IMG/VR virus record: IMGVR_UViG_3300009550_000009
Direction: 5' to 3' (one strand)
Length of the DNA: 64,000 bases
Source of the DNA: a virus
Both the position numbers and the translations under genes were made by a program. This document shows, piece by piece, positions 2-17,575 of this stretch (its first letter is position 1; every line of letters begins with the position of its first letter). Under the pieces are notes generated by a model that was not told the origin of the DNA, did not search any database, and saw nothing but the letters and a program-made list of their open reading frames with translations.

Positions 2-121
2 CCAACAAATAGAATGGATGCTGTTGCCATTGCAACTGGAGGAACATCAGTTGATTTTGGTGATTTAACTGTAAGTAAAACTACAATGACTGGTTCATCA
101 AATGGTCACGGAGGTTTATAA
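2..121 (+). CDS. 3' end of a DFGD-repeat propeller paralog (partial)
   Basis: Frame reads PTNRMDAVAIATGGTSVDFGDLTVSKTTMTGSSNGHGGL*. Stop overlaps the next ATG (TAATG). Not in the ORF track. Confidence 0.9.
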   Translation, partial: PTNRMDAVAIATGGTSVDFGDLTVSKTTMTGSSNGHGGL

Positions 122-1131
122 TGGCAATACTTAAAGTCGATACAATCTCTGGAATTGGCACTGAAGGCCCAGTATTTGAGGGAGATATAGAATTTACAAG
201 TCAAAACTTTTTAACACTTCCAAAGGGTGATACAACACAAAGAGGAAGAGGTCGTGGAGTTATAATGGGTGGTTATAGTAGCCCTAATGGTTACGAGAAA
301 GATATTTATTACCTTGACATACAATCTATGGGTAATGCAATAAGATTTGGTGATTTAACAGCAACCAGATATGCTGGTGGTGGATGTGGATCATCAACTC
401 GTGGAATAATTGGTGGTGGAAGAGATCCTAGTGGTCGTATTAATATTATTGAGTCTGTAGAGATTGCAATTACCAGTAATTCAATAGATTTTGGTGATTT
501 AACAGGTGTAAATGCGTTTAATCAAGGAGGTGGAAATCAAACTAGGGGTATTTGGATGGGTGGAGCAACACCTACAACAGTTGATACCATAGAATTTGTT
601 ACGATTGCATCAGCAGGAAATGCAACTGATTTTGGTAATATGACGGCTGTAAAAAACTCTGTTGCCACTGGTGCAAGTTCTACAAGAATGCTTGGAATGG
701 GTGGAGGAAATCCTTCATCAAAATTAGCTACAATAGACCTTATTACAATCGCAACCACAGGAAACGCATCAGATTTTGGTGATTTGACCATAGCAAAAAG
801 TTCAGGAACAGGAGTTTCAAGTGGAATTCGTGCTGTAGCTATAGGTGGAGTTGGTTCACCCGCAATTCTTAACACTATGGATTTTGTTACGATTGCAACT
901 ACAGGAAATGCAACTGACTTTGGTGATACAGTTGCACCATATGAACATACAGGATCAGTTGATAATTCAATTCGTGGTGTGATATGTGGTGCTAGAACAC
1001 CAAGTTATCTCAATATCTTAGAATCTATTACTATCGCAACCACAGGAAACTCAACAGATTTTGGTGATATATCAAGAGATAATCTTGCTTACGTTGCAGG
1101 AACATCTGACAGTCACGGAGGTTTAGCATAA
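121..1131 (+). CDS. DFGD-repeat Kelch-like propeller protein, N-terminal class A
   Basis: Six ~50-aa repeats RG.x.GG...I(D/E).ITIA..GN..DFGD; ends SDSHGGLA. Confidence 0.85.
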   Translation: MAILKVDTISGIGTEGPVFEGDIEFTSQNFLTLPKGDTTQRGRGRGVIMGGYSSPNGYEKDIYYLDIQSMGNAIRFGDLTATRYAGGGCGSSTRGIIGGGRDPSGRINIIESVEIAITSNSIDFGDLTGVNAFNQGGGNQTRGIWMGGATPTTVDTIEFVTIASAGNATDFGNMTAVKNSVATGASSTRMLGMGGGNPSSKLATIDLITIATTGNASDFGDLTIAKSSGTGVSSGIRAVAIGGVGSPAILNTMDFVTIATTGNATDFGDTVAPYEHTGSVDNSIRGVICGARTPSYLNILESITIATTGNSTDFGDISRDNLAYVAGTSDSHGGLA

Positions 1132-2147
1132 TGAGTATCAATCCCGTAGAAATTCCAACAGGAGCAGTCAGATATAATACTGACAGTAATAAGATGGAGG
1201 TATATATTGGCAGCACATGGATGGAGGTCGCTGTAAGCACACCAAATCTTGATGGTGGTGCTCGTGGAATATTTACTTCAAGGTCAACTTCTCCCGGTGT
1301 ATATGTTAACACAGTAGATTATATTACAATAGCAACAGCAGGGAATGCGATTGATTTTGGTGATACGATTGGTAGTGGAGCGTATGGTTCAACCGCATCA
1401 TCTAAAACTCGTGGGTTACTTGGTGGTGGTCATCCAAACTCTAATGGATCAGATACAATTCAATTTTTTACTATTTCATCAACAGGAGACGGAACAGACT
1501 TTGGTAATTTAACATCAGCAAGATGGATAATGGGTGGTGGTGTCTCAAGTCAAACTCGTGGAATTTTTGTGGGTGGAGCTATACTCACAAGTGGTAATCC
1601 AAATACAAATGTTTTAGATTTTGTAACAATAGCATCAGAGGGAAATGCAGTTGATTTTGGTGATCAGATCACAGCAAGGAGACAACAAGGAAGTGTTAAC
1701 AGTTCAACTCGTGGCATATTTGCTGGAGGATATAATCCCGGCACTTTAAATTTAATTGAATTTGTTACAATTGCAACAACAGGTAACACACAAGATTTTG
1801 GTGATTTAATTGGAGCACTTAGACAAAACGCAGGAGTATGTAATTCAACTCGTGGTGTATTCGCTGGTGACTATCCTGCTGCAAATCATATTGATTTTAT
1901 AACAATTGCAACTTTAGGAAATGCACAAAACTTCGGTGATTTGACAGCACCACGTTTTCTTAATGCTGGAGTATCATCACCAACTCGTGGAGTATTTGCT
2001 GGAGGTTATTCTCCTAGTGAACCATCACCAACAAATAGTATAGAATACATAGCAATTCCAACACAAGGTGATGCAGTTGATTTTGGTGATTTGACTGTTG
2101 CTGGTTATGGGTCTGGTGGAATATGTAATGCACATGGAGGGTTGTAA
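1131..2147 (+). CDS. DFGD-repeat propeller protein, class B
   Basis: N-terminal GAVRYNTDSNKMEVYIGSTW, then six repeats; ends NAHGGL. Confidence 0.85.
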   Translation: MSINPVEIPTGAVRYNTDSNKMEVYIGSTWMEVAVSTPNLDGGARGIFTSRSTSPGVYVNTVDYITIATAGNAIDFGDTIGSGAYGSTASSKTRGLLGGGHPNSNGSDTIQFFTISSTGDGTDFGNLTSARWIMGGGVSSQTRGIFVGGAILTSGNPNTNVLDFVTIASEGNAVDFGDQITARRQQGSVNSSTRGIFAGGYNPGTLNLIEFVTIATTGNTQDFGDLIGALRQNAGVCNSTRGVFAGDYPAANHIDFITIATLGNAQNFGDLTAPRFLNAGVSSPTRGVFAGGYSPSEPSPTNSIEYIAIPTQGDAVDFGDLTVAGYGSGGICNAHGGL

Positions 2148-2168
2148 AAACCGTTCCCTTGTGCTATA

Positions 2169-2175
2169 CTAAATA
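2169..2175 (+). promoter_or_regulatory. T4-like late promoter (CTAAATA)
   Basis: Variant of TATAAATA about 25 nt upstream of ORF 2202. Confidence 0.55.
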
Positions 2176-2201
2176 CATCAGTCATAACTTATTGAATAAT
2201 A

Positions 2202-3110
2202 ATGGATGAAAAATCAGCAGCAATTACTGAAGTAGAACTTACACCGGGTTCTGCGATATCTGTAAGTGATCTGAAACAAGACCTAACAAACCTGACTCCT
2301 GAGTATAAGGGAATGTTAAGTCATATCGAGGAGACACTACCTGCAACAAACGCAGCCTGTGATAACTTCTATAAGTCACACTCACAGATGATGACGGTGA
2401 CATTAGATATTACTGATCTTACACCAGTGCGAAGCATCAAACATACTCTTGCATCAATCGAAAGAACAAAGAGTGCGATCATGGAAGCACAGATTAATAT
2501 GAAAAAGAATGAGGTGAAGGTCAAGAAGAAGCAAAGAGAGATAGATCAATGTGAAGATTCACTCGATCAAGAGGAATTACAGATCGAGTTAATTGAACTA
2601 CTGAATAACAATCGTAGTATTGAGAACTCAATGAAAGGTGCGATTCGTAAGATGTCATTCCTGATGACACAGTATCGTTCTGTTCTTGATCATATTGGTA
2701 AGGATCATATCACAGAAGAGGATTATGAAAGAGAAGAGAAACGCTATCATGTCATGACTGCATTGAAGCAAGCACTCAACTCTGCAAGACCTCGTGGTGG
2801 TGTGATTGATGAGGGTAACTCAATTTACCTATTTGATATTGGTGTAAACGTATCACATGCACAGGCAGAGATCTTCAACTATCTGAAGATTGAGAATGAA
2901 ATGGTTGCAAAAGGTCAAGCACCATCACACGAGATGACAGTTGAATGGCTTGAGAAGTGTGCAGACAAGTTCCAAGATTGTTCAGAAAGATTTGCAGCAA
3001 GTCGTGGATTCACAATACTTGATGAGAAGTCATTAACACAAGCAGAACAGGTAACAATGCTACCTTCAAAAGCAGACGCAGAGTTTGCGAAACTCAAAGA
3101 AGCAGAGTAA
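2202..3110 (+). CDS. hypothetical protein with central coiled coil
   Basis: 302-aa ORF with a heptad-rich K/E segment. Confidence 0.8.
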   Translation: MDEKSAAITEVELTPGSAISVSDLKQDLTNLTPEYKGMLSHIEETLPATNAACDNFYKSHSQMMTVTLDITDLTPVRSIKHTLASIERTKSAIMEAQINMKKNEVKVKKKQREIDQCEDSLDQEELQIELIELLNNNRSIENSMKGAIRKMSFLMTQYRSVLDHIGKDHITEEDYEREEKRYHVMTALKQALNSARPRGGVIDEGNSIYLFDIGVNVSHAQAEIFNYLKIENEMVAKGQAPSHEMTVEWLEKCADKFQDCSERFAASRGFTILDEKSLTQAEQVTMLPSKADAEFAKLKEAE

Positions 3111-3112
3111 TT

Positions 3113-3835
3113 ATGATTCATCTTGTAATTGGCACACCCATGTATGGTGGGATGTGCACTAGCGAATATACACAGTCATTATTAAACTTAAGTGAGGCAG
3201 CAAACAAGTCTGAGGGTGTCAAACTGACAACTATCTTTCTTGGCAATGAAAGTTTGATACAACGTGGGCGAAATACAATCGCACATCATTTCATGAATTT
3301 ACCTGATGCAACTCATCTATTATTCATTGATGCTGATATCAAGTTTCGCACTGAAGATATTGTGAAGATGATACAGGCAGATAAGTCTCTTATCATAGGC
3401 CCTGTTGCATTGAAAGGATACAACTGGAATGAGATTCGTCAGGCTGCAGTTAATGGTGAGGATGATATTGGAAGAACTGGTGGTGTATTTAACATCAATC
3501 ATCTTCCCGGAATTGATATGGTGGATGAAAATGAACCATTTGAAATTGAACATGGTGGTAATGCATTTATGATGATTCGTCGTGATTGTTTTGAGACTTT
3601 GAAACCCCATACTCCCATATATACTAATGGAGGAAGATCTCTACCTGACGGTGTAGAAATAAAAGACTACTTTCGTGTAGAGATAAATAAAAATACGAAT
3701 CATTTATTATCTGAAGATTATTTCTTCTGTCATTCATATCGACAAGTAGGTGGAAAAGTCTGGTGTGCTCCTTGGGTGGAGACTGGACATTTTGGTTCAC
3801 ATCTCTTTAATGGTAAATACACTAGGAACAATTAA
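3113..3835 (+). CDS. GT-A-fold glycosyltransferase-like protein
   Basis: IGTPMYGG, LLFIDADI (DxD) and LSEDYFFC motifs. Confidence 0.7.
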   Translation: MIHLVIGTPMYGGMCTSEYTQSLLNLSEAANKSEGVKLTTIFLGNESLIQRGRNTIAHHFMNLPDATHLLFIDADIKFRTEDIVKMIQADKSLIIGPVALKGYNWNEIRQAAVNGEDDIGRTGGVFNINHLPGIDMVDENEPFEIEHGGNAFMMIRRDCFETLKPHTPIYTNGGRSLPDGVEIKDYFRVEINKNTNHLLSEDYFFCHSYRQVGGKVWCAPWVETGHFGSHLFNGKYTRNN

Positions 3836-3840
3836 CGAAA

Positions 3841-4647
3841 ATGGCACAACCAATTGTAAAATATACTTTAAATAAGAAAGGGCAAGTGCCTAGTTGGATT
3901 AACACTAGCTCATCTTCATTTGCTGGTCAACATGGCATCAGTGGAAATAAGGATGGATATATTCCGAGATATGAAGATCCGCAAGAGACAATCTACTTAG
4001 GAATTGCATCTGGTGATCCTGATCCTGATGGCACTCCTGATGATTACGTTGGAACATTTGCAAATAAAACTGCTCTTCAGACATACATAACAGCAACAGG
4101 ATCGACATTACAATATAAAACAGTAACAGGGACAGTTACAGGAGTTCAAACATCTGTAACAACTGGATTATCTACTGCATGGAATCAAACAGAATACTCT
4201 GGTGGATTATCAACATCAACAACAACAAAGCACACAGCCTCTGGTGTTGGAACAGTTGCAACCATATCTACATCTGGAGTCACTAAAGTTGTCACAGTTG
4301 TTGATACAACAACAGGAAGTTCAACTAGCACAGTTTCAAATCCAGTGACAGTTGATCCTGCATCTACACTAAGTGGAGTTTCAACCTCAGTTGGAATCGT
4401 AACTACATCTTCAACAGATGAGTTTACTGGTGTTACAACTACAACAACCACGACTGACACAACATCATTTACTTATACTGATGTGACGACTAACTCTTCA
4501 ACATCAACCTCTGAGACAACAACAGATGGAGTGACAACAAGAACTGATACGGTGACATCAACTGAAACTACAAATTATGAGACCAGTTATGATTATGCAG
4601 CAGAAGCAACAAGACTCTGGGATATATACACAGCACTTAATTCATAG
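3841..4647 (+). CDS. Thr/Ser-rich protein
   Basis: About 150-aa T/S/V low-complexity tract between non-repetitive termini. Confidence 0.75.
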   Translation: MAQPIVKYTLNKKGQVPSWINTSSSSFAGQHGISGNKDGYIPRYEDPQETIYLGIASGDPDPDGTPDDYVGTFANKTALQTYITATGSTLQYKTVTGTVTGVQTSVTTGLSTAWNQTEYSGGLSTSTTTKHTASGVGTVATISTSGVTKVVTVVDTTTGSSTSTVSNPVTVDPASTLSGVSTSVGIVTTSSTDEFTGVTTTTTTTDTTSFTYTDVTTNSSTSTSETTTDGVTTRTDTVTSTETTNYETSYDYAAEATRLWDIYTALNS

Positions 4648-4653
4648 TAATAT

Positions 4654-5448
4654 ATGAAATTTTATTTTGATTGTGGACTCCCTCGTTCGGGGTCTACACT
4701 TTTGACTGCGCTATTAAATCAAAATCCTGAGATTCATGCTGGAACGTTATCTCCTGTATTTGAGTTGATGTATTATACGAATGAGATACTTCATAAGGAA
4801 CAAGCACAAGCATTTCCTAAGCCAAAAGTATTTCAAGAGATTGTAACAAATAATATTATAAATTATTATTCTGATGTAAAAAATCCAGTCATAATTGATA
4901 AATGTAGAGCATGGCCTGCACACATTGATATTATCAAGAAGTATGTAACCAATAATCCAAAACTGATATGCACAGTTCGTCATCCACTTGATATTCTTGC
5001 ATCTTTTATTACTTTATTTCATAAAGACGGAACTCTCAACTTTATTGATAAAGCAATGCTTAAAGAAGGAAAAACTATTACAGATGATAATCGTTGTCAT
5101 TATATGATGAATCCGGGTGGAATCGTATGGGAATCAATGAACGCACTCGCAACAGCGTTTAGGCAGAAACAACAACATCATATTCATTTTATACAATACG
5201 ATAATCTTGTATCTAATACATCACAAGAGATTGCAAAACTACATGGATTTTTAGAACTAGATCCATATGTTTATAACTTTGATAATATAGTTGCAAAAGA
5301 TAGAGAAAAAGATGCAGTGGTATATGGATTACCTACAATGCATGAAGTAAGAAAATCAATTAGTAAAATATCAAAACCATATCAAAAAGTGTTGAGTGTA
5401 GATGTGATAAATAAATATATTAACTATGATTTTTGGAATCAGCAATAA
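4654..5448 (+). CDS. PAPS-dependent sulfotransferase
   Basis: GLPRSGSTLL (5'-PSB loop) and VRHPLDILAS (3'-PB motif). Confidence 0.85.
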   Translation: MKFYFDCGLPRSGSTLLTALLNQNPEIHAGTLSPVFELMYYTNEILHKEQAQAFPKPKVFQEIVTNNIINYYSDVKNPVIIDKCRAWPAHIDIIKKYVTNNPKLICTVRHPLDILASFITLFHKDGTLNFIDKAMLKEGKTITDDNRCHYMMNPGGIVWESMNALATAFRQKQQHHIHFIQYDNLVSNTSQEIAKLHGFLELDPYVYNFDNIVAKDREKDAVVYGLPTMHEVRKSISKISKPYQKVLSVDVINKYINYDFWNQQ

Positions 5449-6621
5449 ATGTCAGAAGTTAGGGTCAACAATCTATCAAATGAGAATAATACAGGTGGCC
5501 CTACCATATCAGGTATCACAACGTATTCTGGCAGACATTTCTTTGTGCCACCAACTGGAGACACCGCAAGTAGACCAGAGGATTGCGAGCCAGGATCACT
5601 CAGATTTAATACAGATACAGCGCATTTAGAATATTTTAGAGGAAATACAATTGGTTGGGTGGAGATAGAAGCAGAACTTACAGAACCACTAGGAGGAGGA
5701 ACGGGATCGAATACGGGTCTTGGCACTCGCATGTTTTTTGCGGGTGGAACAGATGGATCTGGAGTAGTTGATGTTATTCAATTTGTAACTATTTCAACAT
5801 TAGGAAATGCTCAAGATTTTGGTAATCTAACGGCTGCAAAACAAGAGGGAGGAGCACTTGCTAGCCGCACAAGAGGATTTTATTTTGGTGGAGATCCTGC
5901 CCTTAATGTAATTGAATTTATTACAATGGCATCCACAGGAAATGCCTCTGATTTTGGGGATACCAGCACCACCTCAAAATCTGGGATGGGTATGTCAGAT
6001 AGAACTCGTGGAGTAATGGTGCATGGATTTTCAGCACCTACTAGAGTTAATACAATCAGCTTTATTACGATGGCACAAAATGGAAATTCAGTTGATTTTG
6101 GTGATGCCACTGCTCAATGTAATGCTGGTGGTGGATTAAGTTCTTCAACAAGAGGGGTATACGCACTAGGATCTCTTGATGGTGTGTATAGTAATGCTAT
6201 AGACTTTATAACAATAAAAACAACGGGAAATGCAGCAGATTTTGGTGATCTTTCAACAAGTGGAGTTCATTGCAATACTTATTCTAATGCCACTCGTGGA
6301 GTTTTTCATAGTGCTTATCAATATCCAGCCTCTCCAAACTTTATGAATGTTATTCAATTTATAACAATTGCAACAACAGGAAATACAACAGACTTTGGTG
6401 ATTCACTCACTGGAGGATATGGATGTGGTGGAGCATCACCGACTCGTGGTGTTACTGGTGGTGGATATTTTGCTGGTGCTCCTACTGGTGAGTCTGGAGG
6501 GTTTACAAATATCATTGATTTTGTTGAAATAGCAACCACAGGAAACGCAAAAGATTTTGGTGATTTAACAAATACAGTGCGACATATTAAGGGTGATTCA
6601 AATGGTCACGGAGGTTTATAA
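5449..6621 (+). CDS. DFGD-repeat propeller protein, class AB (full N-terminal module)
   Basis: PPTGDTASRP...GSLRFNTD..LEYFRG..IGW, then six repeats; ATAAATA late promoter at 5407-5413. Confidence 0.85.
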   Translation: MSEVRVNNLSNENNTGGPTISGITTYSGRHFFVPPTGDTASRPEDCEPGSLRFNTDTAHLEYFRGNTIGWVEIEAELTEPLGGGTGSNTGLGTRMFFAGGTDGSGVVDVIQFVTISTLGNAQDFGNLTAAKQEGGALASRTRGFYFGGDPALNVIEFITMASTGNASDFGDTSTTSKSGMGMSDRTRGVMVHGFSAPTRVNTISFITMAQNGNSVDFGDATAQCNAGGGLSSSTRGVYALGSLDGVYSNAIDFITIKTTGNAADFGDLSTSGVHCNTYSNATRGVFHSAYQYPASPNFMNVIQFITIATTGNTTDFGDSLTGGYGCGGASPTRGVTGGGYFAGAPTGESGGFTNIIDFVEIATTGNAKDFGDLTNTVRHIKGDSNGHGGL

Positions 6622-7799
6622 TGTCTGAAATTAATTCTTCAAATTTTAAAAAGGAACATGGTGATCTTGCACCAGATCTTGTTGGTGTCACAGAACTGAC
6701 ATCACCTTATTTCTTTGTGCCACCATCAGGAAACACAGCAGAGAGACCAGAGGATTGTGAGCCCGGCACACTCAGATTTAATACTGATATTGGAAGTCTT
6801 GAAGTTTTTAGAGGAAATACAATTGGTTGGGAACAAATACAAAGAAGAGAAGGTCAATATCTAGGTGGAGGAATAACACCAAACCTTGGATCAAATTCTG
6901 GAACAGGAACTCGTGGGATAATTTTAGGTGGAGAGAGCCCATCAACTGGTAATAGAGATATAATTGAATATATTACGATTGAAACTTTAGGTAATACACA
7001 AGATTTTGGTAACTTGGTTTATTCAAGAAGAGGTGGAACACAAAATTGTGGATCAAGAGTGAGAGCGTTGATAGGTGGAGGATACACAGGCCCTGCAGAT
7101 GAAGAGGAGATAGATTTTATAACTTTTGCAAGTCTTGGAAATGCACAAGATTTTGGTGATTTAACAAGTAAAACTCATTCAGGTAGTGCTTGCTCAACCA
7201 ATGTAAGGGGATTATTTACGGGAGGATATACTGGATCTGGAACTGTCACCAATAATATTTGTTATGTAACAATCTCACAAACAGGAAACGCTGTTGATTA
7301 TGGTGATTTAACAAGAACAACTAGAGCTCTTGGGTCATGTCAATCTTCAACTCGTGGAATACAGGCAGGAGGAGCACCAAGTAACCAAAACACGATGGAT
7401 TTTATCACCATGATGACAACTGGTAATGCAACAGATTATGGTGATTTAACTGTAGGTAGAGATATTATTACAGGTGGAGGTAATTCAACTCGTGGCATAT
7501 TTGCTGGTGGAAGAACTGCTCCTGCTGGTGCATTCACAAATGTTATAGATTTTATTACGATTGCAACTCTAGGTAACGCAATAGATTTTGGTGATTTACA
7601 AGATGCTGCATATATGTCAGGGAGATCAACTGCATCATCTCCCCTTAGAATGGTTATGACAATGCCAAATACTCCAAGTTTCCAAGCTGGTTTTGATTTT
7701 ATAGAGATTGCAACAACAGGAAATGCACAAGACTTTGGTGATGCATCTGAAGCAATGCAATCAAATGGTGCAACTTCTAACGGTCACGGAGGTTTATAA
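6621..7799 (+). CDS. DFGD-repeat propeller protein, class AB
   Basis: Same architecture; TAATG coupling. Confidence 0.85.
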   Translation: MSEINSSNFKKEHGDLAPDLVGVTELTSPYFFVPPSGNTAERPEDCEPGTLRFNTDIGSLEVFRGNTIGWEQIQRREGQYLGGGITPNLGSNSGTGTRGIILGGESPSTGNRDIIEYITIETLGNTQDFGNLVYSRRGGTQNCGSRVRALIGGGYTGPADEEEIDFITFASLGNAQDFGDLTSKTHSGSACSTNVRGLFTGGYTGSGTVTNNICYVTISQTGNAVDYGDLTRTTRALGSCQSSTRGIQAGGAPSNQNTMDFITMMTTGNATDYGDLTVGRDIITGGGNSTRGIFAGGRTAPAGAFTNVIDFITIATLGNAIDFGDLQDAAYMSGRSTASSPLRMVMTMPNTPSFQAGFDFIEIATTGNAQDFGDASEAMQSNGATSNGHGGL

Positions 7800-8959
7800 T
7801 GTCACAAATTAACATCAGAAACTTATCAAATGAAAATGATGATGGATCACCAGAGATAGTCGGTGTATCTACATTTTCTGCAACATCATTCTTTGTGCCA
7901 CCAAAAGGATCAACAGCAGAGAGACCATCAGACTGTGAGCCCGGTTCAATCAGATTTAACACAGATACAGCAAACTTAGAATATTTTAGAGGAAAGACAC
8001 TTGGTTGGAGTCAGTTTGAATTAGTCACATCTAATCTTGGTGGGGGAACAGGATCAAATACAGGTGTTGGTGCTCGTGCATTATTCACTGGTGGTCAAGC
8101 ACCGGGAAATACTGATGCCATTGATTTTGTTACTATATCAACTTTAGGTAACTCACAAGATTTTGGTAATTTAACTACCAGTTTAAGCAATACCGGGTCA
8201 GGTGCTTCAAGAACTAGAGGACTTATTTGTGGTGGAGAGCCACTAAGAGCAGACATTGAATTTGTAACATTCGCATCAACAGGTAATGCAACTGACTTTG
8301 GTGCAGACCTGTCAGGCAATAGGAGAGGATCTATGAATGTTTCTTCCTCAACGAGAACGTGCGTTGCTGGTGGTTATACTGCAGGTAGTCCTTATCCAAG
8401 AACAGCTGCGATAGATTATTTGACCATGGCATCAACAGGAACTGCTGGTCAAGATTTTGGTGATTTGACAAATGGTGTTAGATTATTTAATGGTGGAATG
8501 TCTTGTAATTCGACAACTCGTGGTATATGGATAGGTGGTAGTGATCCAAGTTCTGGAACCACTCATATGGATTCCATAACAATTTCAACTTTAGGAGACT
8601 CAACAGATTTTGGTAATTGCACACAGAGTAATGGTGGGCCAAAAGGAAATTGTAATGCAACTCGTGGTGTATGGGCAGGATTCTTTACTCCATCAGTTGT
8701 AAATACAATTGAATTTGTCACGATTGCAACAACAGGAAACACACAAGACTTCGGTGATTTAACAGTATCGAGAGCCTTTTGTCAATCGAGTGGATGCTCT
8801 CCAACAAGAGGAGTATGGGCAGGTGGTGCAACACCTACAAGAGTTAACACCATTGACTATGTTGAAATAGCAACCGCAGGAAATGCAGTTGATTTTGGAG
8901 ATACAATAGCAGCAACAAATGAAGGTGGCGGTATGTCTAACGCTCATGGAGGTCTCTAA
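7799..8959 (+). CDS. DFGD-repeat propeller protein, class AB
   Basis: Same architecture; TAATG coupling. Confidence 0.85.
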   Translation: MSQINIRNLSNENDDGSPEIVGVSTFSATSFFVPPKGSTAERPSDCEPGSIRFNTDTANLEYFRGKTLGWSQFELVTSNLGGGTGSNTGVGARALFTGGQAPGNTDAIDFVTISTLGNSQDFGNLTTSLSNTGSGASRTRGLICGGEPLRADIEFVTFASTGNATDFGADLSGNRRGSMNVSSSTRTCVAGGYTAGSPYPRTAAIDYLTMASTGTAGQDFGDLTNGVRLFNGGMSCNSTTRGIWIGGSDPSSGTTHMDSITISTLGDSTDFGNCTQSNGGPKGNCNATRGVWAGFFTPSVVNTIEFVTIATTGNTQDFGDLTVSRAFCQSSGCSPTRGVWAGGATPTRVNTIDYVEIATAGNAVDFGDTIAATNEGGGMSNAHGGL

Positions 8960-8967
8960 ATAATCAT

Positions 8968-9975
8968 ATGGAAAAACCCTCACTCGATACGGCAAAAGCA
9001 GGTGCAATGCGTTTCAATACGGATAGCAGCCAGATGGAGATTTATGATGGGAATCAGTGGACAGGAATATTAGCAACATCACCAAATCAACAAACTGGTG
9101 GAACTCGTGGGATATGGGCTGGGGGAGGCCCCTCTGCAACTGATAGAATTGATTTTGTCAATGTAGACACCACTGGAGATGCAATTGATTTTGGTAATTT
9201 GCTTGGCAATGAAAATTATACAAGAGGATATGGAAATCGAACACGAGGATTATGGGCTCAATCTGTATCCCCTGCAACTGACCAAATAGAATTTATAACA
9301 ATCGCACAACAAGGAAATTCACAAGATTTTGGAAATTTAACTCAATCTTCTCAATCTGGTTGTCATACAGGAGATAGCACAAGGTGTGTTTTTTTTGAAG
9401 GTATAAACCCAACAACTAATGTAATATCATATGTTACTATAGCATCAACAGGAAATGCTGTTGATTTTGGTGATATGTTGCAAGGGGTAAGACACACATG
9501 TGCAGTTCAATCACCTACAAGGGGTATAGTTCCCGGTGGGTGGACTAATCAACCTAATCATAATACTAACATAATTCAATATATCACTACTTCAACGTTG
9601 GGTAATGCATCAGACTTTGGTGATGTTACTATATCAGAATCTTTAAGAGGTCATGCAGCTGGGTCTAATGCAGTAAGAGGAGTTTATGGTGGTGGAATAC
9701 GATATCCGAGTGGTGTGCAAACTGGATTAGAATTTATCACGTTGGCAACTTTAGGTAATGGAACAACATTTGGTGATTTAGCTTATTCTGGTAGACAGGA
9801 AGGTGGTGGTTGTGCCTCTGGCACACGAGCAGTATTTGGGGGTGCATATGCTCCAAGTGCATTAAATACGATGAATTACGTGCAGATAATGACCACAGGT
9901 AACGCATTTGATTTTGGTGATTTGACTATCGCAAGAGGAACAGGAGCTCTTTCAAACGGTCATGGAGGTTTATAA
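8968..9975 (+). CDS. DFGD-repeat propeller protein, class B
   Basis: GAMRFNTDSSQMEIYDGNQW, then repeats. Confidence 0.85.
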   Translation: MEKPSLDTAKAGAMRFNTDSSQMEIYDGNQWTGILATSPNQQTGGTRGIWAGGGPSATDRIDFVNVDTTGDAIDFGNLLGNENYTRGYGNRTRGLWAQSVSPATDQIEFITIAQQGNSQDFGNLTQSSQSGCHTGDSTRCVFFEGINPTTNVISYVTIASTGNAVDFGDMLQGVRHTCAVQSPTRGIVPGGWTNQPNHNTNIIQYITTSTLGNASDFGDVTISESLRGHAAGSNAVRGVYGGGIRYPSGVQTGLEFITLATLGNGTTFGDLAYSGRQEGGGCASGTRAVFGGAYAPSALNTMNYVQIMTTGNAFDFGDLTIARGTGALSNGHGGL

Positions 9976-11012
9976 TGTCTGAATTTAGAGTCAACTCAAT
10001 TACAAATCAAGACGGAAGTGCAGGGCCTCAGGTATGTGGTGTCTCGACATTTAGTGGTAAGTCTGGTGTTCAGATACCAAGTGGGCCAACAGATTTCCGT
10101 AGACAAGATGGTGGTGGAAGAGGAAGAGGAGTGTTTGGTGGAGGTTATAATCCTACAATTAATAACGTGTTGAATTTCGTAGAGATTGCAACCACAGGAA
10201 ATGCAACTGATTTTGGTGATTTAAGTTTATCAAGAAAATTTATTGCTTCATCAGGTGATTCAACTCGTGGTTTATTCATGGGTGGTGAAACACCTACAGC
10301 ACAATCTGTCATTGATTATGTCACTATATCATCAGGTGGTGGTGCGAATGATTTTGGAGATTTAACAGAAGCAAGAGATTTTGGTGCAGCATGTAATTCA
10401 AATGTTCGTGGAATTTATGGTGGTGGAGACGGAACAAGTCAACCATACTTAACTAAAATAGATTCTGTTATCATACAATCCACCGGTAAAGCAAATAAGT
10501 TTGGTGACTTATCACTAGCAAGATTAGGTTTAGGTGCTGGTTCAAGTCCAACAAGAGCTGTATTTGGTGGAGGAACAGGAGGATCACCTTTAAATAACTT
10601 GTTGTTAATTGATTTTATAGAAATTGAAACTGGTGGAACTGCTGTAAAATTTGGAGAATTATCTGTAGGTAGACATTACGTTTCTGGCATATCAAATTCA
10701 ACTCGTGCATTATTTGCTGGTGGAGTTACACCTACCACAGTGAATACAATTGATTTTATAACGATTGCAACCACAGGAAATGCAACTGACTTTGGTGATA
10801 TGACAGTTGCAGCAAGAGGTTTAATGGAGGGAAGTGCAACAACTTCAACTCGTGGTTTATTAATATCTGGTAAACATGATAGTGGATATTATAATGTAAT
10901 TAACTTTGTCACTTTTTCAACAGCAGGAGATGCAACTGATTTTGGAGATACAACAGGACTTGTTAGTTATGGTGGAGCAATATCTGATACGAATGGAGGA
11001 TTAGCACAATGA
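9975..11012 (+). CDS. DFGD-repeat propeller protein, class A
   Basis: MSEFRVNSIT...GP...PSGPT..GRGRG, then repeats. Confidence 0.85.
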   Translation: MSEFRVNSITNQDGSAGPQVCGVSTFSGKSGVQIPSGPTDFRRQDGGGRGRGVFGGGYNPTINNVLNFVEIATTGNATDFGDLSLSRKFIASSGDSTRGLFMGGETPTAQSVIDYVTISSGGGANDFGDLTEARDFGAACNSNVRGIYGGGDGTSQPYLTKIDSVIIQSTGKANKFGDLSLARLGLGAGSSPTRAVFGGGTGGSPLNNLLLIDFIEIETGGTAVKFGELSVGRHYVSGISNSTRALFAGGVTPTTVNTIDFITIATTGNATDFGDMTVAARGLMEGSATTSTRGLLISGKHDSGYYNVINFVTFSTAGDATDFGDTTGLVSYGGAISDTNGGLAQ

Positions 11013-12022
11013 CGGAACAAAGACCATTACAACCAACTCCCGTAGGAGCATTACGATTTAATTCTGATAGTGCAAATTTAGAATATTTTGATGGGAATGA
11101 ATATGTAAATATCACAACCGACTCACCTGAACAAAATACTGGTGGAACTCGTGGATTATTCGCTGGTGGTTACAAAGTTCCGGGCACTAGCAATGAAATA
11201 GATTTTATAAACGTTGATACGACAGGAAACGCAACAGACTTTGGAAATCTATCTGCCGAAAGAAGAGGTGTTGCTGGCCTTGCATCTAGAACTCGTGGAT
11301 TATTTGCTGGTGGCCGATCTCCTGATGTTAATACAATTGAATTCGTTACAATCGCATCAACAGGTGACGTAACTAATTTTGGTGATTTAACAATAACATC
11401 ACATCACGGAACAGGCCTGTCAGATTCAACTCGTGGAATCATAACTGCAATGGAAAATCCAGGCTGGCCTAGCAGTAACAGTAATCAAATAGATTATGTT
11501 ACAATTGCATCAACAGGAAATGCAAATGATTTTGGTGATTTATATTTTGGCACAAGAGAATGTGGTGGATGTGCATCACCCACTCGTGGTGTTGTTTTTT
11601 CAGGAACACCTAGTGGATCAAATGTCATTCAATATTTTACAATCTCAACACAGGGTAATTCGGCAGACTTTGGTGATTTAACCACTGTTGGTCAAAGAGG
11701 TAAAGGTGGTAGTAATGCAGTAAGAGGATTATTCAATATAGGTTTAACACCAAGCGTTAGTAATATAGTTGATTTTATAACTATTGCAACGTTGGGTAAT
11801 GCAAAAGATTTTGGTGATTTAACAGAAGCAAGAGGTAATGCATGTGCAACGGCATCTTCCACTCGTTTTGTTGTTGCAGGTGGTGGAGCTCCATCGGTAG
11901 TTGATACAATTGATTATGCTCAGATAATGACAACAGGTAATTTTATTAATTTTGGAGAACTTGTTGGAGCTGATAGAAGTCAACTAGGTGCTTGTTCTAA
12001 CGGTCATGGAGGTTTAGGATAA
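11009..12022 (+). CDS. DFGD-repeat propeller protein, class B
   Basis: GALRFNSDSANLEYFDG, then repeats; ATGA overlap. Confidence 0.85.
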   Translation: MTEQRPLQPTPVGALRFNSDSANLEYFDGNEYVNITTDSPEQNTGGTRGLFAGGYKVPGTSNEIDFINVDTTGNATDFGNLSAERRGVAGLASRTRGLFAGGRSPDVNTIEFVTIASTGDVTNFGDLTITSHHGTGLSDSTRGIITAMENPGWPSSNSNQIDYVTIASTGNANDFGDLYFGTRECGGCASPTRGVVFSGTPSGSNVIQYFTISTQGNSADFGDLTTVGQRGKGGSNAVRGLFNIGLTPSVSNIVDFITIATLGNAKDFGDLTEARGNACATASSTRFVVAGGGAPSVVDTIDYAQIMTTGNFINFGELVGADRSQLGACSNGHGGLG

Positions 12023-13041
12023 TGTCAGAACTTAGAATTAACAACATTACAGACACCGCAGGGTCAAGTGGGCCAATTATTGCTGGTGTGTCAACAGTTA
12101 CATCAACATCACACATGGTCATGCCAAGTGGCCCAACAGAAATGCGTGGTGGAAGAGGAAGAGGGGTATTTTCAGGTGGATCAAATCCAGTAAGTAAAAC
12201 AATGGATTTGATTGAAATTGCCACCACTGGAAATGGAACATTTTTTGGTGACATTATCGCTACTAGATGGGGTTTAGGTGGTCTTGCATCATCAACTCGT
12301 GGTGTATTTGCAGGTGGATATTATAATTCACCAGCTTCCTTCTTTACAAATATTGAATACATAACGATGTCCTCAAGCGGGGGGACAAATGACTTTGGAG
12401 ATCTCTCTCAAGGAAACTATAGGCCAGGTTGTTGCAATTCTCCAACTCGTGGTCTTGTGGGTGGTGGATTTGTTCCACCTAGTTTTGCTCAAATAAACAA
12501 CATTGAATTTATAACGATTGCGTCAACAGGCGACTCCTCTGATTTTGGTGATTTATCAACAATTTTAGCAAATAATGGATCTTGTTCATCACCTACTCGT
12601 GGAATATTTGCTGGTGGTTATAATCCATCACTTACTGCACAAATAGATTTTGTCACGATTGATACAAAAGGAAATGGACAAGATTTTGGTAATTTAACAC
12701 AAGCAAGAAAAGAAGCTTATGGGTGTTCAAATACAACTCGTGGATTGTTTAATGGTGGTGGTTATCCGGGAGGAACATCAACTACAATTGATTTTATTAC
12801 GATCGCTTCTTTTGGTGACGCAATAGATTTTGGTGATTTATCAGCAGCTAAATCATCTGTTGGAGCTGTTGCATCATCAACTCGTGCGGTTATTGGTGGG
12901 GGTGCAGCACCCGGTGCGATTAATGTCATGGAGTTTGTTACCATAGCGACAACAGGAAATGTAACAGACTTTGGTGATCTTTTGACTGCAAGAAGAGATA
13001 TTGGCGGTGCTTCAGATAGTAATGGTGGACTTGGAGACTAA
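12022..13041 (+). CDS. DFGD-repeat propeller protein, class A
   Basis: MSELRINNIT...PSGPT..GRGRG, then repeats. Confidence 0.85.
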   Translation: MSELRINNITDTAGSSGPIIAGVSTVTSTSHMVMPSGPTEMRGGRGRGVFSGGSNPVSKTMDLIEIATTGNGTFFGDIIATRWGLGGLASSTRGVFAGGYYNSPASFFTNIEYITMSSSGGTNDFGDLSQGNYRPGCCNSPTRGLVGGGFVPPSFAQINNIEFITIASTGDSSDFGDLSTILANNGSCSSPTRGIFAGGYNPSLTAQIDFVTIDTKGNGQDFGNLTQARKEAYGCSNTTRGLFNGGGYPGGTSTTIDFITIASFGDAIDFGDLSAAKSSVGAVASSTRAVIGGGAAPGAINVMEFVTIATTGNVTDFGDLLTARRDIGGASDSNGGLGD

Positions 13042-13049
13042 ATATTAAT

Positions 13050-14135
13050 ATGTCAGACTTTAAAATAAACAGTATTGCAACGAAACAAGGTCAGCACGGG
13101 CCGGTAATTGCTGGTGTCTCGACAATCAACTCCACTGGTTGTATGAAGATACCAAGTGGGCCAACTTATTATCGTGGTAATCGGGGTAGAGGTATATTTG
13201 CAAGTGGGCATGAACCTAACTCAGTTAAAAATATAGATTTTATCAATATCGCATCAACAGGAAATGCAACGGCATGGGGTGAAGTTCTTGGTAATGGTAT
13301 GGCACTTGCAGGTGGTGCATCCAATAATGTTCGTGGTGTCTATACGGGTGGTTTCGAGGGATCTCCAACCAATAATAGAATAAACACAATACAAGCACTT
13401 AATATTCCCACAAATGGAGACATATTTGACTTTGGTGATCTGACATATACCTCTCAACAAATGAGTGGTGTTGGTAATCAGACTCGTGGTGTCTATGCAA
13501 ACGGATATGCATATCCACTTGCACCATCAACAGATGCATTAAATATGACATATACCATGATTGAGTTTATGTCAAGTGCAAATAAAACAGATTTTGGTGA
13601 TATTATTGCTAACGCAGCATGTAGAGACTTAGCAACAGTTGAAACTGAGATTCGAGGATATTTTGCCGGTGGAGAGGGAACTGGTCAAGTTCCGGGAACT
13701 CATAACAAAAACATAACAATCAAAGGATTTGCAAATGGAAGCGAATCACTTAATTTTGGTGAATTATCCGTGCAAGCAAAACGAGGGGCTGGAGTTGGAA
13801 GTCATACCAGAGGAGTTTTTATTTGCGGTGGTATTGCAGACTCACCTGAAGCATTTTCAAATACAATTGAATTTATTACTCTTACAACATCAGGTGAGGC
13901 AACTGATTTTGGTGATGCGACAAGTAATACTGGTGCGATTAATAACAATAGTGCAAGTAATACAATTCGAGGTGTTTATCATAATCCAAGAACAACAGAT
14001 GGTGGAGCAGAAAAAAATATTCTTGAATTTATCACAATAGCGACCACAGGAAATGCGACTGATTTTGGTGATTTAAACTATTCATCTCGTGATGGATGTG
14101 GATTATCTGACTCTCATGGAGGATTACCATTATGA
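13050..14135 (+). CDS. DFGD-repeat propeller protein, class A (divergent)
   Basis: MSDFKINSI...PSGPT..RGRG, then more divergent repeats. Confidence 0.85.
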   Translation: MSDFKINSIATKQGQHGPVIAGVSTINSTGCMKIPSGPTYYRGNRGRGIFASGHEPNSVKNIDFINIASTGNATAWGEVLGNGMALAGGASNNVRGVYTGGFEGSPTNNRINTIQALNIPTNGDIFDFGDLTYTSQQMSGVGNQTRGVYANGYAYPLAPSTDALNMTYTMIEFMSSANKTDFGDIIANAACRDLATVETEIRGYFAGGEGTGQVPGTHNKNITIKGFANGSESLNFGELSVQAKRGAGVGSHTRGVFICGGIADSPEAFSNTIEFITLTTSGEATDFGDATSNTGAINNNSASNTIRGVYHNPRTTDGGAEKNILEFITIATTGNATDFGDLNYSSRDGCGLSDSHGGLPL

Positions 14136-15187
14136 AGGAATATCAAGTTATTGGAAACGCAGCCTCTGGTTCAATCAGATTTAACACAGATTCGAGTAAG
14201 TTAGAGATATACAATGGCGAGCAGTGGTGGGAGATAGATGCAACATCACCAGAGTTACAAACTGGTGGAACTCGTGGAATATTCATGGGTGGTTATCAGC
14301 CTGGTGGTGGTGATAAAGATGATATAGAATTTATAAATGTAGATACAACAGGAAATGCAACTGATTTTGGTAATTTAACAACTGAAAGAAGAGGAACTGG
14401 TGGAGCAGTTGGAAGTCGAACTCGTGCTGTAATGATAGGTGGAAGAGATTCACCCACCAATGAATGTGTAATTGATTTCGTGACGATTGCATCAACAGGA
14501 AATGCAACAGATTTTGGTGACGTAACAAATGGAGTGGCAAATAGTGGTCAGGGTGGAAATGCAGTAAGAGGAGTTGCTTACTCTGGATCTCGTAATAATC
14601 CTAGCCCAGCAATTACAAATACAATCGATTTTATAACAATCGCACAACAAGGTAATGCAGTTGATTTTGGTGATGCTGTAACTGGGGCTATAACTCAAAC
14701 TGGAGGTCTTAATTCACCAACTCGTGGATTATTTGCTGGTGGATATACTCCAAGTGAAACAAATGCTATATCATATATTAATTTTATGACTACAGGGAAT
14801 GCATCAGATTTTGGAGATTTGACTCGTTCTAAAGCAAGAAGGCCTGGTGGTGGTAGTAATGCAGTTCGTGGAATAATTGCTGGTGGTAATCATTATGATA
14901 GTGGTGAAGAAGGTCAGGATACTATTGAATTTATTACACTGGCAACATTGGGAAATGCATCAGACTTTGGTGATTTATTAAATACTGATACAGAAAGTAT
15001 GGCAGGTTGTTCTTCACCTACAAGAGCAGTATTTTTCTCTTCTCCAATATCACCCGGCACTCAGACAAATACATTATCTTATGTTCAAATTATGACAACT
15101 GGAAATGCGATTGATTTTGGTGATTCCACTACGAATAATAGATGGGGTAAGGGTGGAACATCAAATGGTCATGGAGGTCTTGGATAG
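14132..15187 (+). CDS. DFGD-repeat propeller protein, class B
   Basis: GSIRFNTDSSKLEIYNGEQW, then repeats. Confidence 0.85.
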   Translation: MKEYQVIGNAASGSIRFNTDSSKLEIYNGEQWWEIDATSPELQTGGTRGIFMGGYQPGGGDKDDIEFINVDTTGNATDFGNLTTERRGTGGAVGSRTRAVMIGGRDSPTNECVIDFVTIASTGNATDFGDVTNGVANSGQGGNAVRGVAYSGSRNNPSPAITNTIDFITIAQQGNAVDFGDAVTGAITQTGGLNSPTRGLFAGGYTPSETNAISYINFMTTGNASDFGDLTRSKARRPGGGSNAVRGIIAGGNHYDSGEEGQDTIEFITLATLGNASDFGDLLNTDTESMAGCSSPTRAVFFSSPISPGTQTNTLSYVQIMTTGNAIDFGDSTTNNRWGKGGTSNGHGGLG

Positions 15188-15237: not shown

Positions 15238-16053
15238 ATGGTCAACGCTATAGACTTTAGTGATCTGACAGGATTAAAGCAAGAGAAACCAAAACCACAA
15301 GGATTTCAAACTTCTCCACCCCAACAACCACAACAACAGTTAGGTGTAAAAAATCCTAAAACTGGTGAAGTGCAAGCAGCCATGGGTTATCCTGTGAATC
15401 AGATGGGTCAAGGTGATGAGTTATTACAGTTGTTCCCGATGCCTGTAATGATATGTCCCTACCCTGTGGATTATACAAAAGAATTAGAATGGATAAAAAA
15501 TAAAGAGTGTAGAAAAGAAAATGGTGGAGATTCAAATGGGCAAGGTCAAAAAATTCATTACAATCGTCAATCAGAAGATACTTTTGTGCTTGACAACCCA
15601 GAATTAGCAAATATTCGTGCATTCATTGAAGCGAAGTTGCATAAGTTTGTAACAGAGATCATGTCATCAGCTGATAAATTGGTTATTACACAGTCATGGT
15701 TGAATAAGAGTAAGAAAGGAGAGTCACACCATGAGCATGTGCATCCGAATAGTATGGTGAGTGGTGTTTGGTATCCTCAAATTCATGAACAATTACCACC
15801 AATACAATTCCGTAGTCGCAATCAAAGAGATATATCATTATCAACAGAGAAATATAATACATTTAATAGTGCAACATTTATGTTACCTATGAAACGTGGA
15901 GAGTTAATATTATTCCCAAGTAACCTAACTCATAGTGTTCCTGTTAATAATAGTGAAGAGGAACGTATCAGTTTATCATTCAACTCATGGCCTAAAGGTA
16001 ATATGGGTGATGAAAGATCATTGACATATCTACCTCTTGATCGCTGTATCTAA
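15238..16053 (+). CDS. 2OG-Fe(II) oxygenase-like protein
   Basis: HEHVHPNS.VSGVWY...LFPS.L.HSV...RISLSFN. Confidence 0.8.
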   Translation: MVNAIDFSDLTGLKQEKPKPQGFQTSPPQQPQQQLGVKNPKTGEVQAAMGYPVNQMGQGDELLQLFPMPVMICPYPVDYTKELEWIKNKECRKENGGDSNGQGQKIHYNRQSEDTFVLDNPELANIRAFIEAKLHKFVTEIMSSADKLVITQSWLNKSKKGESHHEHVHPNSMVSGVWYPQIHEQLPPIQFRSRNQRDISLSTEKYNTFNSATFMLPMKRGELILFPSNLTHSVPVNNSEEERISLSFNSWPKGNMGDERSLTYLPLDRCI

Positions 16054-16982: not shown

Positions 16983-17575
16983 TGACTAATTACAACAATC
17001 CTAAAACTACACTTCAAGATACAATTTTTATCGTTAAAAAAATAATTCCTGATAATCTTTGTGACTTTGTTGTTCAAGAAGTAGAAAAAAGAGAGTGGAA
17101 ACCTCATACTTGGTATAATGCACAATCAGGTTCGTATGGTTCTGAAGAAACAATGGAACTTGATGTTCAAAGCACATCACCAGAATTGCAGCAATTACTT
17201 ACACCAATTATTATTCAAGCTGGTTCAGCATATAATCAAAATTTTGCCTTTTTAAGTTGTGAAAGAACACGACAAATAATGAATAAGTTTACAACCATCA
17301 GGTTCAATCGTTATACACCAGGCCAAATAATGCGTCAACATCACGATCATATTCACTCAATCTTTGATGGTCAAGAAAAAGGTATTCCAGTTTTAAGTTT
17401 TATTTTAAATTTTAATGATGATTATGAGGGAGCAAAATTATTCTTTTGGGATGATTATGAGTTAGATTTGGGAAAAGGTGACATTGTGATGTGGCCTTCG
17501 AACTTTTTATATCCTCATGGAGTGACAGAGGCTACAAAAGGTAAACGGTATTCCGCAGTGACATGGGCATGGTAG
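16982..17575 (+). CDS. 2OG-Fe(II) oxygenase, prolyl 4-hydroxylase-like
   Basis: HHD...NDDYEG...YPHGV....G.RYS. Confidence 0.85.
   Translation: MTNYNNPKTTLQDTIFIVKKIIPDNLCDFVVQEVEKREWKPHTWYNAQSGSYGSEETMELDVQSTSPELQQLLTPIIIQAGSAYNQNFAFLSCERTRQIMNKFTTIRFNRYTPGQIMRQHHDHIHSIFDGQEKGIPVLSFILNFNDDYEGAKLFFWDDYELDLGKGDIVMWPSNFLYPHGVTEATKGKRYSAVTWAW

What the first reader, a model, noticed from the sequence alone, without database searches (positions are those of the whole stretch)
121..15187. N-terminal module is split between alternating genes (A + B = AB)
Seen: 5449, 6621 and 7799 carry a full leader (..GP.I.G.T....P.G.T..RP...G.LRFNTD...E.F.G...W). Genes 121, 9975, 12022 and 13050 carry only its first half (ending P.G.T..R-GRG). 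Genes 1131, 8968, 11009 and 14132 carry only the second half (G..R(F/Y)N.DS...E.(Y/F).G..(W/Y)). A is immediately followed by a coupled B three times (121/1131, 9975/11009, 13050/14132). C-termini co-vary: A ends SDx(H/N)GGL, B and AB end N(G/A)HGGL. Inference: A and B chains rebuild one attachment domain in trans, putting two different propellers on one anchor and allowing combinatorial heteromeric receptor-binding units.
Basis: partly seen in the sequence, partly recalled or inferred. Interest (0 to 1): 0.78.

Follow-up and report, generated by a model that had tools for sequence, protein, structure and literature searches.

The report
Split fibre-anchor leader in propeller genes
An uncultured T4-like marine phage carries a row of 12 related propeller-protein genes whose short N-terminal leaders come whole (AB) or as two complementary pieces on neighbouring genes (A, B). 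Related phages show these pairs are a split form of one gene, which hints at multi-headed host-binding fibres, although no contact between A and B has been shown.

Summary
Eleven complete paralogs, plus the 3' end of a twelfth, encode six-bladed Kelch-like propellers. Three have AB leaders, four have A and four have B, and the C-terminal covariation is as described.

- **What the leader is.** It is not a two-half globular domain. It is an N-cap (residues 1-26) followed by a roughly 40-residue mini-domain: a lead-in P.G.T..RP, then a three-stranded sheet G..RFNTD....E.Y.G..W.
- **How common the mini-domain is.** It recurs 5-17 times per protein in giant phage fibre-like proteins (13,020 representative clusters). 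It resembles the CBA120 TSP3 C-terminus and the Mtd N-terminus.
- **Where the split falls.** The A/B break lies inside this mini-domain. A keeps a conserved orphan lead-in and B keeps the sheet.
- **What relatives show.** In 25 related loci all 53 A genes are followed by B, or by A then B. A slots may carry a Laminin_G_3 body instead of a propeller. The window's A121+B1131 pair matches a single AB gene in four relatives. Natural fusions of the form A-X-B-propeller also exist.

So A+B=AB is real as a record of gene fission or fusion. Reassembly of A and B in trans is plausible but untested. It is weakened by unpaired B genes, by A-A-B runs, and by tight coupling at every junction rather than only at A-to-B junctions. 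An earlier scan note had already flagged the array itself.

The parts
2..121 (+). 3' end of a twelfth propeller paralog, ending SNGHGGL (B/AB-type C-terminus); its stop overlaps the ATG of gene 121
121..1131 (+). A-type gene: N-cap plus lead-in (residues 1-41) fused directly to a six-bladed propeller. Its leader is 61-66% identical to the first half of the single AB gene at this position in L003, L005, L007 and L008
1131..2147 (+). B-type gene: sheet module (G.VRYNTD...W) plus propeller. Residues 11-338 are colinear, at 52% identity, with residues 49-366 of the AB gene L003:5802-6899
2202..5448 (+). Four-gene block that interrupts the array (unknown; phrog_1574; Thr/Ser-rich protein; sulfotransferase). 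It sits at the same place in every relative
5449..6621 (+). AB gene 1: full leader (N-cap 1-26, lead-in 27-42, sheet 47-72, linker) plus propeller 90-390
6621..7799 (+). AB gene 2
7799..8959 (+). AB gene 3. The AB-AB-AB trio is present in every related array that is seen whole
8968..9975 (+). B gene (slot 4), always directly after the third AB and with no A before it
9975..11012 (+). A gene (slot 5). In some relatives this slot carries the A leader on a Laminin_G_3 body, and in L009 it is fused to slot 6
11009..12022 (+). B gene (slot 6); ATGA overlap with slot 5; keeps an 'EQRP' remnant of the lead-in
12022..13041 (+). A gene (slot 7), followed by another A
13050..14135 (+). A gene (slot 8)
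14132..15187 (+). B gene (slot 9), last gene of the array; arrays always end in B

Best explanation
The AB leader is a short fibre-type attachment and oligomerisation region. It consists of an N-cap and then one copy of a roughly 40-residue mini-domain (lead-in P.G.T..RP plus a three-stranded sheet G..RFNTD....E.Y.G..W). The same mini-domain is strung many times along giant phage fibre-like proteins, and its closest solved look-alikes sit in trimeric phage receptor-binding proteins. A and B genes are the two cistrons of a split form of the architecture 'N-cap, lead-in, cargo domain, sheet, propeller'. A cargo domain (propeller, Laminin_G_3 or an unknown domain X) sits in the loop between lead-in and sheet, and the chain is either continuous (fused forms) or broken (A + B). 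Shown: the module anatomy, the conserved A->B order, and the replacement of split by fused forms at the same positions. Inferred: the A and B products stay together in one fibre, with A proximal, so that the conserved orphan lead-in of A completes or stacks on the sheet of B. Each fibre would then carry two different binding heads, and the phage would carry about a dozen different heads for host recognition.
For: Leader classes. A profile of AB leaders hits 13,020 representative clusters; the top hits are proteins of up to 5,000 aa with 5-17 matches to profile positions about 27-75, which span the A/B boundary (sequences). In these proteins 125 of 208 strict sheet motifs are directly preceded by P.G.T..R. 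AF2 of the tandem protein P0187 gives each unit, lead-in included, pLDDT 87-93, with disordered linkers between units. VIA-align of that model: CBA120 TSP3 583-625, Z 5.5, rmsd 1.4 A, 41 aligned, 29% id; Mtd 5-49, Z 4.5-5.0; TSP4-N 31-78, Z 3.3. TSP4's 80-residue anchor is described as a triple beta-helix followed by a beta-prism II made of three-stranded sheets (PMC8825819). The orphan lead-in is conserved in A-only leaders, with P35 and G37 invariant. In 25 related loci the right neighbour of 53 A genes is B 42 times and A-then-B 11 times, and never anything else. A slots carry Laminin_G_3 bodies in relatives. A121 leader plus B1131 matches the single AB gene just upstream of the four-gene block in L003, L005, L007 and L008. 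Fusions A(1-37)-X(about 210 aa)-B-propeller are found in L009/P0272 (13 members), P0273, P0274 and P0275 (61% id, different source); the leader matches the slot-5 A at 29/37, and the sheet and body match the slot-6 B.
Against: No test of A-B contact was possible. In the AB monomer model residues 1-40 have pLDDT 54-59 and no secondary structure, so nothing shows that the A part packs on the B part. B genes keep the whole three-stranded sheet and may be self-sufficient. Slot-4 B never has an A partner, and L003-type downstream blocks have 3 B and 2 A. Slots 7-8-9 read A A B. All junctions in the array are tightly coupled, not only A->B. The related arrays share ancestry, so 53/53 is not 53 independent events. 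Structural matches are at Z 3-5.5 over about 41 residues, a range where chance similarity is common (note). The trimeric state and the virion location are inferred only from analogy.
Confidence: 0.5

Rival explanations
1. A, B and AB leaders are independent adaptors. N-cap plus lead-in and the sheet module are separable fibre modules, each enough to oligomerise or dock its cargo at its own site on the baseplate or on another protein. The alternating order is only the frozen history of duplications, domain insertions and gene breaks in a syntenic T4-like late region.
For: The A leader is portable onto Laminin_G_3 bodies, and Laminin_G_3 domains can even sit inside it. The sheet unit is autonomous in the tandem-protein model. 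B genes occur without an A partner (slot 4; L003-type blocks). Other clades of the propeller family use quite different leader sets. Coupling is the same at all junctions.
Against: It does not explain why the orphan lead-in stays conserved in A-only genes. It does not explain why no A gene is ever last in an array or followed by a gene without a B leader, or why A and B genes can be fused in that order and kept down to 61% identity.
Confidence: 0.3
2. A and B do associate, but end to end rather than leader to leader. The sheet module of B docks on the distal face or C-terminal tail of the A cargo tier, as half-fibres join in the T4 long tail fibre, giving a serial two-tier fibre.
For: The fused forms have exactly this linear order, A leader, X, B module, propeller, with about 210 residues between the two leader parts. 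A-type bodies form their own clade and have a distinct C-terminal tail (SD..GGL plus 1-2 residues).
Against: Laminin_G_3 cargos in A slots lack the HGGL tail yet are still followed by B. No interface was tested.
Confidence: 0.12
3. The array does not encode virion proteins. The Kelch-like propellers would be intracellular binders, for example for host takeover, and the leaders would have another role.
For: There is no proteomic evidence and no close homolog in cultured phages. The array lies next to modifying enzymes and an early-gene cassette region rather than inside the baseplate cluster.
Against: The leader unit is the repeat of giant fibre-like proteins and matches tailspike and fibre modules. 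Lectin-type Laminin_G_3 cargos point the same way. A Kelch-domain protein is a virion component in phage CBB (PMC5259590).
Confidence: 0.06

Closest known systems
CBA120 TSP4 N-terminal baseplate anchor domain, and branched tailspike complexes of Ackermannviridae and G7C
   Same: A short N-terminal region of about 80 residues carries attachment, built from successive small modules: a triple beta-helix, then a beta-prism II of three-stranded sheets (PMC8825819). Several receptor-binding proteins with swappable distal domains are assembled through N-terminal modules.
   Different: The structural match is weak (Z 3.3). No T4 gp10-like XD docking domains were seen in the array. The heads are Kelch-like propellers and Laminin_G_3 domains, not beta-helix tailspikes. 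Here the anchor-like leader itself is divided between neighbouring genes.
N-terminal domain of Bordetella phage Mtd and C-terminal mini-domain of CBA120 TSP3 (also phage B2 gp49, 9d83)
   Same: These are the best structural matches of the lead-in plus sheet unit: Z 4.5-5.5, rmsd 1.4-2.3 A, 41-42 residues, 21-29% identity. A sequence-profile hit to gp49 residues 370-404 includes GTTAQRP (E 0.024).
   Different: In those proteins the unit is whole and on one chain. Matches are short and of modest Z. The oligomeric state of the present proteins is unknown.
Tandem fibre-repeat proteins of uncultured phages (e.g. P0187, P0170, P0142)
   Same: They carry the same unit, s.i.P.GTTAQRp..P..Gy.RFNT....lE.Y.G..W, with strong profile matches.
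   Different: There the unit is repeated 4-17 times as beads on one chain. Here a single copy, or a piece of one, heads a propeller protein. No Pfam model covers the unit.
Kelch-domain virion protein of jumbo phage vB_PcaM_CBB (CBB_552)
   Same: A six-bladed Kelch-type propeller in a phage particle (PMC5259590).
   Different: No sequence relation was shown, and there is no array and no A/B/AB leader system.
Gene fission/fusion (Rosetta-stone) pairs
   Same: Adjacent A and B cistrons in one genome correspond to one fused gene in relatives, in the same order.
   Different: The break falls inside a roughly 40-residue mini-domain and comes with insertion of a whole cargo domain. Physical association of the products is untested.

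Membership tests
Kelch-type six-bladed beta-propeller (fold) | Six four-stranded blades closing into a ring | tested here: met
   AF2 model of gene 5449: 24 strands in six blades, pLDDT >90. Foldseek top hits are KLHL12, KEAP1 and KLHL3 Kelch domains, E 1e-15 to 1e-13, TM (target) 0.85-0.9.
Kelch repeat family (sequence) | Match to the Pfam Kelch repeat models | tested here: not met
   No Pfam hit at E<0.1 for any paralog. Identity to Kelch structures is 9-15%. This is fold resemblance only.
Phage fibre mini-domain of the Mtd N-terminus / TSP3 C-terminus type | A roughly 40-residue lead-in plus three-stranded antiparallel sheet | tested here: met
   AF2 of P0187 units, pLDDT 87-93. VIA-align Z 5.5 (TSP3 583-625, 29% id) and Z 4.5-5.0 (Mtd 5-49). 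The AB model has strands at 51-54, 59-63 and 70-72.
Phage fibre mini-domain of the Mtd N-terminus / TSP3 C-terminus type | Three copies associate around a threefold axis | not testable with these tools
   Only monomer predictions are available.
CBA120 TSP4-type baseplate anchor domain | Intertwined triple beta-helix followed by a beta-prism II | tested here: inconclusive
   The sheet part aligns to TSP4-N 31-78 at Z 3.3. The part before it is unstructured in the monomer model, which neither supports nor excludes a triple helix.
Branched receptor-binding complexes with T4 gp10-like XD domains | XD2/XD3 docking domains on one of the partners | not tested
   The Pfam and PHROG scans of the array named no such domain, but no dedicated structural search for XD domains was made, including in the giant baseplate proteins.
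Split gene pair (fission/fusion) | A single fused gene in relatives, colinear with the two cistrons | tested here: met
   A121 leader plus B1131 versus L003:5802-6899 and the genes at the same position in L005, L007 and L008. Slots 5+6 versus L009:2203-3960 and P0272-P0275.
Split gene pair (fission/fusion) | The two products form a complex | not testable with these tools
   No multimer prediction or experiment was possible.

The most novel reading that the evidence does not exclude
The leaders form an assembly code. The orphan lead-in of an A chain completes the sheet module of the following B chain in trans, giving hetero-oligomeric fibres with two tiers of different heads (propeller or lectin-like domain on A, propeller on B). 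The invariant AB-AB-AB trio might likewise form mixed trimers. One phage could then display about a dozen different binding heads in defined combinations, and exchange of single cistrons would re-program host range.
Probability: 0.3. Interest if true: 0.8.

Novelty: new variant of a known kind. Interest (0 to 1): 0.55.

Why it matters
Host recognition by abundant marine T4-like phages is poorly understood. This propeller family has more than 8,000 members in ocean metagenomes, yet a search of 50,697 deposited phage genomes found only one weak match. If the A/B leaders direct ordered co-assembly, the array would be a compact genetic system for building multi-headed receptor-binding fibres from interchangeable cistrons. 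It would also be a natural case of a roughly 40-residue mini-domain split between two chains. Even if A and B do not associate, two results stand. The leader grammar (N-cap, lead-in, sheet) marks domain boundaries for annotating thousands of uncharacterised phage fibre proteins. And the lead-in plus sheet unit is a very widespread repeat with no Pfam model.

Tried and rejected
- **Hidden A half or frameshift link upstream of B genes.** Rejected: frames open only 7-9 codons before the ATG, and the junction frames differ.
- **Double-propeller proteins (P0104, P0112) as A-B fusions.** Rejected: they carry other leader types and have no B module before the second propeller.
- **Long proteins with the AB leader by word-indexed search.** None found. 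The exhaustive profile search then found thousands.
- **Family and sequence searches.** Pfam and NCBIfam gave nothing for the propeller proteins or the tandem-repeat proteins. PDB by sequence gave only a marginal gp49 hit.
- **Cultured phages.** No megablast or tblastn match apart from a weak S-SKS1 hit.
- **The window's own contig.** It could not be fetched upstream of position 1, and the nearest record G001 lacks the family. The class of the twelfth paralog therefore rests on its C-terminus only and could not be refined.
- **Translational coupling as evidence for A-B pairs.** Rejected: all junctions are coupled.
- **1:1 stoichiometry.** It holds in the window (4:4) and in several arrays, but not in L003-type arrays.
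- **P0276 as a second type of fusion.** Set aside: its contig (L093) has many broken ORFs.
- **Propeller-body tree for dating fission versus fusion.** Too noisy: few supported nodes, probably because of gene conversion.
- **Pfam lead PTL_trimer from the ESM Atlas.** Its score of 0.84 is below the tool's 0.9 mark for more than a lead, and the Pfam scans of the propeller proteins returned no such hit.
Full report
**Context.** The window comes from an uncultured T4-like myovirus. Homologs of the baseplate wedge, head-tail connector and tail-sheath stabiliser proteins lie at 34-62 kb. An earlier scan note calls it a T4-like virus of marine cyanobacteria; I did not test the host. The finding covers the first 15 kb.

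**Observation.** Eleven complete ORFs, plus the 3' end of a twelfth at window 2-121, are paralogs at 33-53% identity.
- Each body has six repeats of the type 'FvTIattGNAtDFGDL...tRGvfaGG'.
- AF2 of gene 5449 gives a six-bladed propeller (residues 90-390, pLDDT >90). Foldseek matches Kelch domains of KLHL12 and KEAP1 at E about 1e-15, but no Pfam Kelch model matches.
- The C-terminal covariation is real. It goes with A-type bodies forming their own cluster in a body tree: the smallest supported set holding gene 121 contains 16 A among 24 rows (support 98), and the A label needs 7 changes against 16.5 in shuffles.
- The window order is x A B | four unrelated genes | AB AB AB B A B A A B.
- All junctions within the array are tight (overlap of 1 or 4 nt, or an 8-nt gap), so coupling is not specific to A->B.

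**Size of the family.** The family has at least 8,000 proteins in marine metagenomes, but I found no cultured-phage relative other than a weak S-SKS1 match.

**Anatomy of the leader.**
- A profile of 13 AB leaders (A2), searched against 1.84 billion representative proteins, gave 13,020 hits at E<=1e-3. The best are proteins of up to about 5,000 residues with 5-17 matches each, nearly always to profile positions about 27-75.
In these proteins 125 of 208 strict sheet motifs are directly preceded by P.G.T..R.
- AF2 of the small tandem protein P0187 predicts each unit, lead-in included, at pLDDT 87-93. Each unit has short bridges in the lead-in, a turn at 'TAQ' and three strands. The linkers between units are disordered and pTM is low. 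The unit therefore behaves as an autonomous mini-domain of about 40 residues.
- VIA-align finds its best solved look-alikes in phage receptor-binding proteins:
  - CBA120 TSP3 residues 583-625: Z 5.5, rmsd 1.4 A, 29% identity.
  - Mtd residues 5-49: Z 4.5-5.0.
  - Streptococcal phage hyaluronidase N-terminus: Z 4.1.
  - TSP4-N residues 31-78: Z 3.3, weak.
- The TSP4 paper describes its 80-residue baseplate anchor as a triple beta-helix followed by a beta-prism II made of three three-stranded sheets (PMC8825819).
- A sequence-profile hit to the C-terminus of phage B2 tailspike gp49 (E 0.024; PMC11654681) is consistent with these matches. These Z values are modest, and I treat them as a lead for the fold, not as proof of homology.
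- In the AB monomer model, residues 1-40 are unstructured (pLDDT 54-59) and residues 51-72 form the three strands (pLDDT 78-81).

The resulting grammar is: leader = N-cap (1-26) + lead-in (27-42) + sheet (47-72).
- A genes keep N-cap and lead-in. P35 and G37 are invariant across 17 A leaders.
- B genes keep the sheet, sometimes with remnants of the lead-in ('EQRP' in gene 11009; 'LPPSGE' in L002).

**Relatives.** Two scans of IMG/VR gave 25 non-redundant loci carrying these leaders.
- The array is syntenic. After the four-gene block come AB AB AB, then B, A, B, then A(A), B.
- A slots can carry the A leader on a Laminin_G_3 body instead of a propeller (L003:16504-17382, L008:9795-10730 and all three A slots of L010). 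Laminin_G_3 domains can also sit inside the A leader, between N-cap and lead-in.
- Of 53 A genes, 42 are followed by B and 11 by another A that is itself followed by B. None ends an array or precedes any other kind of gene. Arrays always end in B. These loci share ancestry, so this shows conserved order, not 53 independent events.
- Against strict pairing: slot-4 B never has an A partner, L003-type downstream blocks have 3 B and 2 A, and slots 7-9 read A A B.

**Fission and fusion.**
1. The gene just upstream of the four-gene block is a single AB gene in L003, L005, L007 and L008. The window has A121 + B1131 there. The A121 leader is 61-66% identical to the first half of those AB leaders, its best matches anywhere. 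B1131 residues 11-338 align colinearly, at 52% identity, with residues 49-366 of L003:5802-6899. A rival origin from the A-B pair that lies further upstream in L005 cannot be excluded.
2. In L009, slots 5 and 6 are one 586-residue ORF: A leader (29/37 identical to the slot-5 A of L001), an unknown domain X of about 210 residues, the B module (15/17 identical to the slot-6 B), and a propeller with a B-type C-terminus. The same architecture occurs in P0272 (13 members), P0273, P0274 (on a 55-kb contig) and P0275 (61% identical, from another data source). It is therefore not an assembly error.
3. A fifth protein, P0276, lies on a contig with many broken ORFs and is set aside.

The series 'AB', 'A-X-B-propeller' and 'A-X | B-propeller' thus exists in nature. 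The insertion or break point lies in the loop between lead-in and sheet.

**Interpretation.**
- Shown: A+B=AB is a true statement about module content and about evolutionary history.
- Inferred: the products stay together. Three things favour this: the conserved orphan lead-in, the invariant A->B order, and the fusions. Against it: unpaired B genes, A-A-B runs, the autonomy of the sheet unit, and the lack of any interaction test.
- I put about 0.5 on association through the leaders, 0.12 on end-to-end docking of B on the A cargo, 0.3 on independent adaptors, and 0.06 on a non-virion role.
- The phrase 'one attachment domain rebuilt in trans' should be narrowed to 'one fibre mini-domain whose lead-in and sheet lie on different chains'. 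'Two propellers' should be widened to 'two cargo domains'.

**Comparison and novelty.** The nearest known systems are branched or modular receptor-binding complexes assembled through N-terminal modules (CBA120, G7C), together with ordinary gene fission/fusion pairs. What is new is the array of Kelch-like and lectin-like heads and a leader divided between alternating cistrons. I rate it a new variant of a known kind.

Noticed in passing
window 2202-5448: A four-gene block (unknown; phrog_1574 protein; Thr/Ser-rich 268-aa protein; sulfotransferase, PF13469/PF00685) splits the propeller array. The four-gene interruption is at the same place in every related locus. A second phrog_1574 paralog lies at 31945-32829. 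These may be modifiers of the fibre proteins.
   Followed up: partly
window 15238-17575: Two 2OG-Fe(II) oxygenases flank a radical SAM/SPASM protein directly after the array on the + strand. In relatives (e.g. L003 18382-19219) the homologous genes lie on the opposite strand, so this block is inverted relative to the array.
   Followed up: partly
window 1116-1131, 6606-6621, 9960-9975 and the other gene ends: The conserved C-terminal H-G-G-L is encoded as caCGGAGGTtta. That places a GGAGG Shine-Dalgarno 7-9 nt before the next ATG, so the tail doubles as the ribosome site of the downstream cistron. The last gene of the array (ends at 15187) keeps GGAGG although nothing is coupled to it.
   Followed up: partly
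L001:9954-11048 and L001:12085-13236 (also L002, L004, L009, L083, L088): In one type of array the slot-7 A gene and the slot-9 B gene both start with the same Gly-rich extension (MGYGGGGSGGGG...), while the A gene between them lacks it. Arrays such as the window's have it in neither. This presence or absence covaries between a non-adjacent A and B.
   Followed up: no
L050-L075 (e.g. L050:1455-4629, L051:3875-8783): Other viral contigs carry the same propeller family in conserved triplets with three quite different leaders (an FN3-like leader, 'MPSYSGVW...WP', and 'MS.RYLGG...GVWTL...WP'). Double-propeller proteins also occur (P0104, P0112). Leader sets therefore differ by phage group.
   Followed up: no
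P0122-P0271: The lead-in plus sheet unit (P.GTTAQRP..G..RFNT....E.Y.G..W) is a repeat in giant proteins of up to about 5,000 aa and hits 13,020 representative clusters, yet no Pfam model matches it.
   Followed up: partly
window 5449-8959 and all related arrays: Exactly three AB genes stand in a row in every array seen whole. Whether this reflects a mixed trimer is unknown.
   Followed up: no
L093:5083-8997: This 49.8-kb JGI contig has a run of 34-200-aa ORFs where the AB genes should be, probably from indel errors. Gene calls from it, including P0276, should not be trusted.
   Followed up: no
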